Position numbers: made by a program
Shown here: positions 28,201-31,200 of the stretch, piece after piece
How positions within the stretch are numbered: position 1 is the first letter of the stretch
Layout: every line of letters begins with the position of its first letter
DNA from: Escherichia coli
GTDB lineage: Bacteria; Pseudomonadota; Gammaproteobacteria; Enterobacterales; Enterobacteriaceae
Assembly: GCF_013122565.1 (NCBI RefSeq)
Contig: NZ_CP053258.1
Length of the DNA: 64,000 nt
Strand: one strand, 5' to 3'

Positions 28201-31200
28201 CATTATCACTACTCAGAGCAAGATTCTCGATGACGCTGTAAAGTTCAAAATCGTTGCCTGGCCATGCACAAGAAACCAGGCGAGCGAGGGCATCGTCATC
28301 AATTTTCAGCCGCGTAGAGAAGCGTTTTTCAAGACTGAGTAATTTGTTATTCACCAACGCCGGAATGCTGCCACGCCGCATACGCAGAGGCGGGATGGTA
28401 ATTTCAAATGCATGCAACGCGTAATACAGCTGGCGACTAAAACGATTTTGTTCCACCAGCATTGCGAGGTCCGCGGTCGTTGTGGCAATCACTTTGACAT
28501 CAATTGGTATTAAACGCCGCGCATCCAGTCGCGTGATAACACCCTGCTTGATAACCTGAAGCAAAGCAGACTGTAACTCCACCGCCAGATATTCAATCTT
28601 TTCAAGAAACAGCGTGCCGCCGTGCGCCAGTTCCAGCCGACTCAGACGGCCATTTTCATTGTCCGTGCGATCGCCACCAATAAATTCTTCCACCAGCGCC
28701 GCATCACCATATAACTCACAATTGACGGCGATATAAGGACCTGCAGCACGCTCGCTTTCATTATGAATTGCCTGACTTAGCAGTGCCTTTCCCACGCCCT
28801 CTTCTCCACAAAGCAGGACAGGAAAGCTACTGCGCGCCGCCTGGCGACCAAAATGAATCAAGCGGCGGGTTTGCGGATCGTCCTGTGGCATATGAGCGAA
28901 GGTATGGCTGACTTTTCCTAATTGACTGGTCATTAACTGCCGCATCTGTTCCACAGGATGGAGCAACAAAATAAAGCTGGTTCCCTGCGTTTCTATTATC
29001 GGTTTAAGGGTTATCACCGCATCAATAAACTGGTGCTGGCTTTCAAAGGTTGCTTCTACGTGTTTGAGCGGATGTGCCTGTTTTATTGCTTGTTGCAATA
29101 CGGCGGGTAACGTTAAGAGTTCAGTGATTGCCCTTCCCTGACTTGCCGTCGCGTCAAGGCGCAAGACCCGCGCCGCCTGGGCATTGATAAATTGCAAATT
29201 ACCCTGCTCGTCCCAGCTAATCACGCCATCATCCATACTTTCTAACAGGGCATTAAGTTGATTTAAATGACGGTTAGTTTCAGCGAGCAAACTGTCCGTC
29301 AGCAGTAAATTTCCGACCTCGCGGGCGATTGCCAACGTCAACGGCAAATCAGCTGCGGTAGTTTGCTCAACCGGACACGCCAGCGCTATTGTTCCCGTCA
29401 ATCGGCCCTTGCTGTCAAACAACGGCGTTGCACAAAAGGCCCAGTTCCAGAGTGCCTGTTTGAAATGTTGATCGGCCATCGTTTTCACGGCCTGACCAGA
29501 GATAGCCGCTAACGATAGCGCACAAGTACCAATAATTCCCTCGGCGCAATACGTGCCGTCATTGAATCCCAGTGCACTTAGCTGCTGCAAGGTTTGCGGA
29601 TCGCCATTACGGCTGAGAATGCAGGCGGTTTCATCGAGAATAAACAGCGCACACTCTCGCGGTGCCATATATTCCCAGGCATCTTCCAGCGCAGCCTGCC
29701 CGAGCGTCAGCATCGCTTTCTTACGCCGATAAATAGAAGCAAATGTCACGCCCTGGGCCTGATGTGGTACGTTCCATGTCTCCCGTTTCATCAGTTTATT
29801 GCATCGCTCCCAGGAGGTTGCAATTAAGGGTGATATGCCCCGACCATCGTTGTTAAAAGCGCCACTCATATCCCGCATCCCTTATGACAAAAGGTGTTCC
29901 GGCTCGCAATTTTAAGTATTAATACACGTATAAGTTTCAATATGGAACATTCATTAAAGCATATGTTTCACTATGAAACATAATTTGGGCTAATTTTCTT
30001 TTCCCTTGCCTGATGCACAATGGATTCATCGGCAGTCAGTGGTCGCCGTGTCGTTGAACATCATCCATGCCCTACCGTAATTGCTGGAGCAAAATAATGA
30101 AAAAATTGATCAATGATGTGCAAGACGTACTGGACGAACAACTGGCAGGACTGGCGAAAGCGCATCCATCGCTGACACTGCATCAGGATCCGGTGTATGT
30201 CACCCGAGCTGATGCCCCCGTGGCAGGAAAAGTCGCCCTGCTGTCGGGCGGCGGCAGCGGACACGAGCCGATGCACTGTGGTTATATTGGTCAGGGGATG
30301 CTTTCGGGGGCCTGTCCGGGCGAAATTTTCACCTCACCGACGCCCGATAAAATCTTTGAATGCGCCATGCAAATTGATGGCGGCGAAGGTGTACTGTTGA
30401 TTATCAAAAATTACACCGGAGATATTCTTAACTTCGAAACAGCAACCGAGTTACTGCACGATAGCGGCGTAAAAGTGACCACTGTGGTCATTGATGACGA
30501 CGTTGCAGTAAAAGACAGTCTTTATACCGCCGGGCGACGCGGCGTTGCCAACACCGTATTAATTGAAAAACTCGTAGGCGCAGCGGCGGAACGTGGCGAC
30601 TCACTGGACGCCTGTGCGGAACTGGGGCGTAAGTTGAATAATCAAGGCCACTCAATAGGTATCGCTCTCGGTGCCTGTACCGTTCCTGCCGCGGGCAAAC
30701 CTTCTTTTACCCTTGCGGATAATGAGATGGAGTTTGGCGTCGGCATTCATGGTGAGCCGGGTATTGACCGCCGTCCCTTCTCTTCCCTTGATCAAACCGT
30801 CGATGAAATGTTCGACACCCTGCTGGAAAATGGCTCATACCATCGCACTTTGCGTTTCTGGGATTATCAACAAGGCAGCTGGCAGGAAGAACCACAAACC
30901 AAACAACCGCTCCAGTCTGGCGATCGGGTGATTGCGCTGGTTAACAATCTTGGCGCAACTCCGCTTTCTGAGCTGTACGGCGTCTATAACCGCCTGACCA
31001 CACGTTGCCAGCAAGCAGGATTGACTATCGAACGTAATTTAATTGGCGCGTACTGCACCTCACTGGATATGACCGGTTTCTCAATCACCTTACTGAAAGT
31101 TGATGACGAAACGCTGGCACTCTGGGACGCCCCGGTCCACACCCCGGCCCTTAACTGGGGTAAATAAGGAGAAAGCAATGTCACTGAGCAGAACTCAAAT

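What the first reader, a model, noticed from the sequence alone, without database searches (positions are those of the whole stretch)
29963..29981. Perfect 8-bp inverted repeat ATGTTTCA-cta-TGAAACAT in the dhaR-dhaK divergent promoter region
This palindrome lies ~115 bp upstream of the dhaK ATG, between the divergent dhaR and dhaKLM genes. It is a candidate operator for DhaR (or another regulator). A related half-site-like sequence, tttcaatatggaacat, lies just upstream.
Basis: inference. Interest (0 to 1): 0.25.

Follow-up and report, generated by a model that had tools for sequence, protein, structure and literature searches.

The report
DhaR operator pair upstream of dhaK
The palindrome is real and is most likely one of two adjacent docking sites for the regulator DhaR, which switches on the dihydroxyacetone kinase genes of E. 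coli; it is an ordinary operator in a well-studied locus.

Summary
ATGTTTCA-cta-TGAAACAT sits at 29963-29981, and the perfect arms extend to 9 bp (29962-29982). It lies 115 nt upstream of the dhaK ATG (30097), between divergent dhaR and dhaKLM, in sequence nearly identical to E. coli K-12.

The "half-site-like" sequence upstream is a full second dyad (29932-29950), 31 bp away centre to centre.

Dha control regions next to dhaR orthologues in 10 other genomes, from about eight other genera, carry the same motif. The consensus is GTTYCAT-W-ATGRAAC, and the sites come in pairs 31-32 bp apart.

A weight matrix built only from other genera ranks the two window sites first and second in all 64 kb (24.3 and 22.6 bits; next best 10.9).

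Downstream of the proximal site, at a fixed register, lie a T-tract and a -10-like hexamer (CACAAT, 30016-30021). This puts the sites near -56 and -87 of a predicted sigma-70 promoter.

DhaR and its orthologues lack GAFTGA, and no sigma-54 promoter is present.

Best reading: paired DhaR operators that activate dhaKLM and probably mediate dhaR autorepression.

Direct binding could not be tested, and the primary paper (Bächler 2005) was not readable. Interest is low: this is a known regulatory system.

The parts
29962..29982 (.). Site 2, the finding: promoter-proximal DhaR box, TATGTTTCA-CTA-TGAAACATA. The conserved 15-bp core GTTTCAC-T-ATGAAAC is 29965-29979, centred on 29972.
   Evidence: Searches give the sequence and the perfect 9-bp arms. 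It scores 14/14 against ATGTTYC-N5-GRAACAT and 22.6 bits with a matrix built from other genera.
29932..29950 (.). Site 1: distal DhaR box, AAGTTTCAATATGGAACAT, centred on 29941, 31 bp from site 2 and closest to dhaR.
   Evidence: 13/14. It is the top hit in the 64 kb at 24.3 bits. The orthologous position is a perfect or near-perfect dyad in Citrobacter and other Escherichia.
29992..30002 (+). Conserved T-tract AATTTTCTTTT occupying the -35 region of the predicted DhaR-dependent dhaK promoter.
   Evidence: A T-tract lies at +20..+30 from the proximal-site centre in the same register at nearly all dhaK, dhaD and dhaB promoters aligned (Serratia lacks it). The promoter role is inferred.
30016..30021 (+). 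-10-like hexamer CACAAT. The predicted transcription start is near 30028, which puts site 2 at about -56 and site 1 at about -87.
   Evidence: A hexamer with A at position 2 and T at position 6 (CACAAT, CAGAAT, AAGAAT, GAGAAT, TATAGT, TACAGT, TAAAGT, TAGAGT) starts at +44 or +45 from the proximal-site centre in all 21 dhaK-, dhaD- and dhaB-side promoters aligned. The start site was not mapped here.
27950..29869 (-). dhaR, the regulator: GAF, PAS, AAA+ (Sigma54_activat) and Fis-type HTH_8 domains, with no GAFTGA motif.
30097..33239 (+). dhaK (30097-31167), dhaL (31178-31810) and dhaM (31821-33239): the regulated operon.
   Evidence: Dak1; Dak2; EIIA-man/HPr/PEP-utilisers domains; annotation.
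29902..29913 (-). dhaR-side block AAAATTGCGAGC (minus strand), conserved between E. coli and Citrobacter at a fixed distance from site 1. It contains a TAAAAT-like -10 candidate (29909-29914) and the TTGCGA hexamer (29904-29909). It is the candidate region for the dhaR promoter.
   Evidence: One search shows the same register in E. coli and Citrobacter L006. PMC3946193 lists TTGCGA-17-CATAAG as a predicted dhaR promoter. The role is inferred.

Best explanation
The palindrome is the promoter-proximal member of a pair of operator sites ('dha boxes') for DhaR, the regulator encoded next door. Each box is a 15-19 bp dyad with consensus a-t/c-GTTYCAT-W-ATGRAAC-a/g-t, sized for a dimer of the Fis-type helix-turn-helix at the DhaR C-terminus. 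The two boxes are three helical turns apart (31 bp), so two dimers would sit on one face of the DNA.

The boxes lie at about -56 and -87 from a predicted activator-dependent sigma-70 promoter. That promoter has a T-rich stretch instead of a good -35 and the -10 hexamer CACAAT. From this position DhaR would recruit or stimulate RNA polymerase to transcribe dhaKLM once DhaL::ADP activates it. The same pair, whose distal box abuts the short dhaR promoter region, would mediate the reported dhaR autorepression.

Shown here: the sequence, its pairing, its conservation and its fixed register. Taken from the literature: DhaR activates dhaKLM from a sigma-70 promoter and represses dhaR. Inferred: DhaR contacts these bases, the start-site position and the activation mechanism.
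For: 1. The palindrome and the second dyad are in the sequence.

2. All dha control regions examined next to dhaR orthologues carry the motif: the dhaK-dhaR, dhaK-dhaD/dhaR and gldA-dhaKLM regions in all ten non-Escherichia genomes, as pairs 31-32 bp apart, and the dhaT-dhaB region in the two loci that include it (a pair in L038, a single site in L035). The genomes are three other Escherichia lineages, three Citrobacter, Rahnella, Klebsiella, Shimwellia, Serratia, Pantoea and three further enterobacterial loci.

3. De novo 7-mer enrichment in seven non-Escherichia regions puts GTTTCAT (18 observed, 0.96 expected) and GTTCCAT (14 observed, 0.36 expected) at the top.

4. The symmetrised matrix of 37 non-Escherichia sites has invariant G-7/C+7. 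Its centre, A-T-W-A-T, is conserved although it was not part of the search pattern.

5. A matrix from 31 sites of other genera ranks the two window sites first and second in 64 kb: 24.3 and 22.6 bits, next best 10.9, shuffle maximum 17.5.

6. The T-tract and the -10-like hexamer keep a fixed register from the proximal box at dhaK, dhaD and dhaB promoters.

7. DhaR carries an HTH_8 domain, and its recognition helix IGRTTLWRK(M/I)K is identical in eight orthologues.

8. DhaR is the only regulator consistently encoded beside these regions.

9. [quoted passage not shown] In Klebsiella, DhaR regulates dhaT and dhaB (PMC5890353), and the motif also occurs in the dhaT-dhaB intergenic region of the two loci that include it (L035, L038).
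Against: No binding experiment could be consulted or run. Bächler et al. 2005 is not held, and no held paper contains the site sequences.

The collected sites were found with a pattern derived from E. coli and Citrobacter, so the matrix is partly circular. The de novo k-mer result and the conserved centre mitigate this.

The start site is predicted only. A genomic-SELEX paper lists a different predicted dhaK promoter, TTGAAC-16-CGTAAT at 30054-30081 (PMC3946193). That promoter would put the boxes at about -116 and -147.

The simple promoter scan found no consensus sigma-70 promoter in the region.

Other proteins give ChIP or SELEX signals in this intergenic region: AppY, YgfI and NtrC.
Confidence: 0.85

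Rival explanations
1. The boxes are DhaR sites but act as a remote, enhancer-like upstream activating sequence for the promoter TTGAAC-16-CGTAAT (30054-30081). They would sit at about -116 and -147 and act by DNA looping, as the sigma-54 ancestors of DhaR do.
For: PMC3946193 lists TTGAAC-16-CGTAAT as the predicted dhaK promoter within an RpoD genomic-SELEX peak. DhaR has the domain layout of an enhancer-binding protein. Paired dyads about 32 bp apart at roughly -110/-140 are the classical NtrC arrangement (established knowledge).
Against: The CGTAAT hexamer is not conserved in Citrobacter, and the TTGAAC/CGTAAT pair has no counterpart in the other genera. In contrast, the hexamer at +44/+45 from the proximal box and the T-tract are conserved at dhaK, dhaD and dhaB promoters. 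With that promoter the start would fall on the Shine-Dalgarno sequence, about 9 nt before the ATG.
Confidence: 0.08
2. The palindrome is the target of a regulator other than DhaR: AppY, YgfI/DhfA, NtrC, Fis or another global factor.
For: The AppY ChIP-seq summit at K-12 1250957 maps to about window 29978. YgfI ChIP-exo and NtrC genomic SELEX also report the dhaK-dhaR spacer. The 15-bp G-7...C+7 frame with an A/T centre resembles the degenerate Fis consensus (established knowledge).
Against: The reported AppY motif ATGSCWGM is not in the palindrome. The predicted YgfI site GATGCACAATGGATTC maps to 30012-30027, not to the palindrome. The NtrC consensus TGCACC-N5-GGTGCA does not fit, and the nearest TGCAC is at 30014. 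The motif tracks dhaR and dha genes across genera and is absent from the rest of the 64 kb and from the non-dha parts of the fetched loci. A global factor would not behave this way.
Confidence: 0.05
3. It is a chance or purely structural palindrome (DNA cruciform, RNA hairpin or terminator) with no protein-recognition role.
For: As RNA the 9-bp stem folds at -7.4 kcal/mol, z about -2.6 to -3.1 against shuffles. About 2.75 such repeats are expected by chance per 64 kb.
Against: The stem is A/T-rich, has no T-run and is not a terminator. There is no Rfam match. By the predicted promoters it lies upstream of both start sites. Orthologous sites conserve specific bases, not just pairing, and many are imperfect dyads that would fold poorly. 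Expected chance occurrence in this intergenic region is about 0.01.
Confidence: 0.02

Closest known systems
NtrC (GlnG) enhancer sites at glnAp2 and other upstream activating sequences of bacterial enhancer-binding proteins
   Same: The protein has the same AAA+ plus Fis-type HTH_8 architecture. The dyad has the same frame: 17 bp, 6-N5-6, with G at -7 and C at +7 (TGCACC-N5-GGTGCA versus TGTTYC-N5-GRAACA). In both cases there are two sites about three helical turns apart. The NtrC details come from established knowledge.
   Different: No sigma-54 promoter lies downstream, and no GAFTGA motif is present in DhaR or seven orthologues. The boxes sit much closer to the predicted promoter, at about -56/-87. 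Published work assigns a sigma-70 promoter (PMC10084136).
TyrR boxes (TGTAAA-N6-TTTACA) at sigma-70 promoters
   Same: TyrR is the other E. coli enhancer-binding-protein relative that acts at sigma-70 promoters, and it is grouped with DhaR in one family (PMC4797297). TyrR boxes are palindromes with outer TGT...ACA, often paired, and are used both for activation and for repression.
   Different: The half-site sequence differs (GTTYCA versus GTAAA). The frame is one base shorter (G-N13-C versus G-N14-C). The effector is a protein partner (DhaL/DhaK), not an amino acid.
Fis binding sites
   Same: The HTH fold is homologous. The core is also 15 bp, with G at -7, C at +7 and an A/T-rich centre (established knowledge).
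   Different: DhaR boxes have strongly conserved T-6, T-5 and C-3, which Fis does not require. They are confined to dha promoters next to dhaR.

Membership tests
DhaR operator (dha box) | Lies in the control region of an operon regulated by DhaR, next to dhaR | tested here: met
   It lies between dhaR (27950-29869, minus strand) and dhaKLM (30097-33239). Regulation by DhaR is reported in the literature.
DhaR operator (dha box) | Dyad symmetry of a size suited to a dimeric Fis-type HTH | tested here: met
   Perfect 9-bp arms; a 15-bp conserved core with invariant G-7/C+7; an HTH_8 domain at residues 588-627.
DhaR operator (dha box) | Co-conserved with dhaR orthologues in dha promoters and absent elsewhere | tested here: met
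   Site pairs are present in all 14 dha loci examined, from Escherichia and about eight other genera. De novo enrichment supports the motif. Only the two window sites score above 11 bits in 64 kb. The recognition helix is invariant.
DhaR operator (dha box) | Physical binding of DhaR to these bases (footprint, gel shift, ChIP) | not testable with these tools
   The primary paper is not held. No held paper contains the site sequence.
Sigma-54 enhancer (upstream activating sequence of an enhancer-binding protein) | A -24/-12 (TGGCAC-N5-TTGCW) promoter downstream of the sites | tested here: not met
   No match better than 8 of 11 specified positions in eight dha intergenic regions, and none at all in the window.
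Sigma-54 enhancer (upstream activating sequence of an enhancer-binding protein) | Activator carries the GAFTGA sigma-54 contact motif | tested here: not met
   Absent from window DhaR and seven orthologues. This agrees with PMC10084136.
TyrR box | TGTAAA-N6-TTTACA, an 18-bp frame (G-N14-C) | tested here: not met
   The sequence reads TGTTTC-N5-GAAACA, a 17-bp frame with G-N13-C.
Intrinsic terminator or structured RNA | G+C-rich stem followed by a T-run, or a match to a curated RNA family | tested here: not met
   No terminator-like site. No Rfam match at E<=1. The stem is A/T-rich at -7.4 kcal/mol.
YgfI/DhfA (LysR-type) site at dhaK | Coincides with the published predicted site GATGCACAATGGATTC | tested here: not met
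   That sequence is at window 30012-30027, 30 bp downstream of the palindrome (Table S1 of PMC9068703).

The most novel reading that the evidence does not exclude
The base-level DhaR recognition motif (GTTYCAT-W-ATGRAAC), its obligatory pairing at 31-32 bp and its rigid register may not have been defined before. In that register the proximal box centre lies 44-45 bp upstream of a -10 hexamer, with a T-tract replacing the -35. Together these features would describe a distinct promoter class. In it, an AAA+ enhancer-binding-protein relative that has lost sigma-54 contact activates sigma-70 polymerase from a fixed position at all dha regulon promoters of Enterobacterales (dhaK, dhaD-dhaR, dhaB).
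Probability: 0.3. Interest if true: 0.35.

Novelty: already known. Interest (0 to 1): 0.2.

Why it matters
The finding pins the known DhaR-DhaK/DhaL switch to specific bases. It also gives a testable motif and promoter geometry for the whole dha regulon of enteric bacteria, including the Klebsiella and Citrobacter 1,3-propanediol genes that are of biotechnological interest. This is useful for annotation, for building dihydroxyacetone- or glycerol-responsive reporters and for promoter engineering. It does not change understanding of the system.

Tried and rejected
Literature
- Reading the primary DhaR papers (Bächler 2005; Shi 2014) by DOI, PMC id and PubMed id failed: they are not held.
- A full-text search for the site sequences found nothing.
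- Searches on DhaR with footprint, operator, RegulonDB or ChIP terms found no mapped site.
- The cap on the number of papers was reached.

Alternative elements
- Sigma-54 promoter and GAFTGA motif: absent.
- Simple consensus sigma-70 promoter and terminator scan: nothing.
- Rfam: nothing.
- The RNA hairpin reading was rejected: weak A/T stem, base-specific conservation.

Alternative regulators
- YgfI/DhfA: its predicted site maps elsewhere.
- AppY: its motif ATGSCWGM does not match.
- NtrC: the consensus does not match.
- Cra and KdgR operators use TGAAAC...GTTTCA, the opposite half-site order, so they do not fit. This rests on the sequence plus established consensus.
- ArcA uses direct repeats and FNR/CRP half-sites differ. 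These were considered from memory only.

Uninformative checks
- Conservation within E. coli says little, because the whole region is 98% or more identical.
- The distant DhaR-like locus L010 (47% identity) has no motif.

Full report
**The observation.**
Window 29963-29981 reads ATGTTTCA-CTA-TGAAACAT. The repeat finder extends the perfect arms to 9 bp, 29962-29982.

- The minus-strand ORF 27950-29869 has GAF, PAS, Sigma54_activat/AAA+ and HTH_8 domains.
- The plus-strand genes at 30097-31167, 31178-31810 and 31821-33239 carry Dak1, Dak2 and EIIA-HPr-EI-like domains.
- 5383 of 5426 complete E. coli genomes hold this region annotated as dhaR/dhaK.
- The K-12 spacer differs at a single base, 29931.

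The palindrome ends 115 nt before the dhaK ATG at 30097. Markov shuffles of the window give 2.75 perfect 9-bp-arm inverted repeats (spacer 0-10) per 64 kb, or about 0.01 expected in a 228-bp spacer.

**A second site.**
The same tool reports that 29931-29950 is 75% complementary to the palindrome. Read on its own, 29932-29950 (AAGTTTCAATATGGAACAT) is a dyad of the same design, centred 31 bp from the first.

**Comparative evidence.**
A scan of representative genomes with DhaR returned three other Escherichia lineages, three Citrobacter loci and Pantoea. Exact-protein look-ups added Klebsiella, Rahnella, Serratia, Shimwellia and three more enterobacterial loci.

Gene order varies among these loci:
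- dhaKLM divergent from dhaR, as in E. coli, Citrobacter amalonaticus and Rahnella;
- dhaKLM divergent from dhaD(gldA)-dhaR, as in Klebsiella, Shimwellia, L035, L037 and L039;
- gldA-dhaKLM convergent with dhaR, as in Serratia.

In every case the pattern ATGTTYC-N5-GRAACAT occurs in the dha control regions and essentially nowhere else in the loci. It occurs as pairs 31-32 bp apart. There is one pair where one promoter is served and two pairs in the long dhaK/dhaD spacers. A further pair (L038) or a single site (L035) lies between dhaT and dhaB where those genes are present. In the 64-kb window only the two sites score 12/14 or better.

The search pattern came from E. coli and Citrobacter, so I checked independence in three ways.
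- De novo 7-mer counting in seven non-Escherichia, non-Citrobacter spacers puts GTTTCAT (18 observed, 0.96 expected) and GTTCCAT (14 observed, 0.36 expected) at the top, present in all seven.
- The five central positions were unspecified in the pattern but are conserved as A-T-W-A-T. The motif is thus really GTTYCAT-W-ATGRAAC, with G-7 and C+7 invariant in 37 of 37 sites.
- A weight matrix from 31 sites of other genera ranks site 1 (24.3 bits) and site 2 (22.6 bits) first and second in the window. The next best is 10.9, and the best in 20 shuffles is 17.5.

**Link to DhaR.**
DhaR is the only regulator consistently encoded beside these regions (gene tables). It ends in a Fis-type HTH, and the recognition helix IGRTTLWRK(M/I)K is identical in eight orthologues of 54-100% overall identity. 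This fits an unchanged DNA motif.

The 6-N5-6 frame with G-7/C+7 is that of NtrC-type enhancer sites and Fis sites (established knowledge). The literature accessible here states three things:
- DhaR controls dhaKLM (PMC6643234);
- DhaR is an enhancer-binding-protein relative that acts at a sigma-70 promoter and lacks the sigma-54 contact motif (PMC10084136);
- in Klebsiella, DhaR regulates dhaT and dhaB (PMC5890353).

I confirmed that GAFTGA is absent from the window protein and seven orthologues, and that no -24/-12 element is present in the spacers.

**Promoter geometry.**
I aligned all promoters on the centre of the proximal box. The alignment shows a T-tract at +20..+30 (window AATTTTCTTTT, 29992-30002). 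It also shows a hexamer with A at position 2 and T at position 6 starting at +44 or +45.
- dhaK-side promoters: CACAAT in Escherichia and Citrobacter, then CAGAAT, AAGAAT, GAGAAT and TATAGT.
- dhaD promoters: TACAGT, TAAAGT, TAGAGT, and CAGAAT in L037.

In the window this hexamer is 30016-30021. It predicts a start near 30028, with box centres at about -56 and -87.

This is inference. A genomic-SELEX paper lists a different predicted dhaK promoter, TTGAAC-16-CGTAAT at 30054-30081 (PMC3946193). That -10 is not conserved outside Escherichia and would start transcription on the ribosome-binding site.

The dhaR side of the E. coli pair lacks the T-tract and hexamer architecture. Instead it has a block, AAAATTGCGAGC (29902-29913, minus strand), conserved with Citrobacter at a fixed distance from site 1. 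A dhaR promoter squeezed into the 62 bp between site 1 and the dhaR ATG would have its -35 region at or next to site 1. That placement would explain the reported autorepression, but I could not establish it.

**Rivals.**
- YgfI/DhfA: its published predicted site maps to 30012-30027, not to the palindrome.
- AppY: its ChIP-seq summit maps to about 29978, but its motif ATGSCWGM is not in the palindrome and the peak is weak.
- NtrC: its SELEX peak maps to about 30002, near a TGCAC at 30014.
- RNA or terminator reading: the stem is A/T-rich (-7.4 kcal/mol), no terminator or Rfam family matches, and orthologous sites conserve bases rather than pairing.
- Chance is excluded by the comparative data.

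**What is known and what is not.**
The regulatory system is published and well known. I could not read the primary study. I therefore cannot say whether these dyads and the start site were already drawn there or are curated in RegulonDB. No held paper contains the site sequences.

I classify the finding as already known at the level of the system: it is a DhaR operator in the E. coli dha control region. There is a modest chance that the explicit consensus, the obligatory pairing and the fixed register add detail. Interest is low.

Noticed in passing
window 30028-30096; L032 1711-1807, L033 3148-3241, L035 1726-1821, L038 2146-2238, L039 2168-2264: The dhaK leader downstream of the predicted start is structured and conserved. 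It begins with a 5' hairpin whose arms differ between genera but stay complementary (ATCGCC/GGCGAT, ACCGGC/GCCGGT, ACCGGG/CCCGGT, CCGGCC/GGCCGG). A conserved CCCUAC follows, then a second hairpin, then a CUCC-N3-GGAG hairpin that pairs the Shine-Dalgarno. E. coli and Citrobacter amalonaticus have a shorter version (CCCTAC at 30070-30075), and the E. coli fold is no better than shuffles. There is no Rfam match. This may be a post-transcriptional control element.
   Followed up: partly
window 30012-30027: The published predicted YgfI/DhfA (LysR-type) site GATGCACAATGGATTC overlaps the conserved -10-like hexamer CACAAT of the predicted DhaR-dependent promoter. That is an odd position for a proposed activator.
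   Followed up: partly
window 29931: The window has T where K-12 and almost all E. coli have A, one base outside site 1. Only 7 of 5362 matching records are identical to the window over 29928-29985.
   Followed up: yes
L012 (Escherichia albertii NBRC 107761) 3001-3333: Only the last 111 or so codons of dhaR are matched, and the upstream flank is unrelated sequence. The dha locus appears to have decayed in this species.
   Followed up: no
L035 8160-8178; L038 8785-8834: The same boxes lie between the dhaT-side and dhaB-side operons of the 1,3-propanediol (dha) regulon. On the dhaB side the T-tract and -10 keep the same register. This fits the reported DhaR control of dhaT and dhaB in Klebsiella.
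   Followed up: partly
E. coli plasmids (12 places): A few E. coli plasmids carry a copy of the dhaR-dhaK control region.
   Followed up: no
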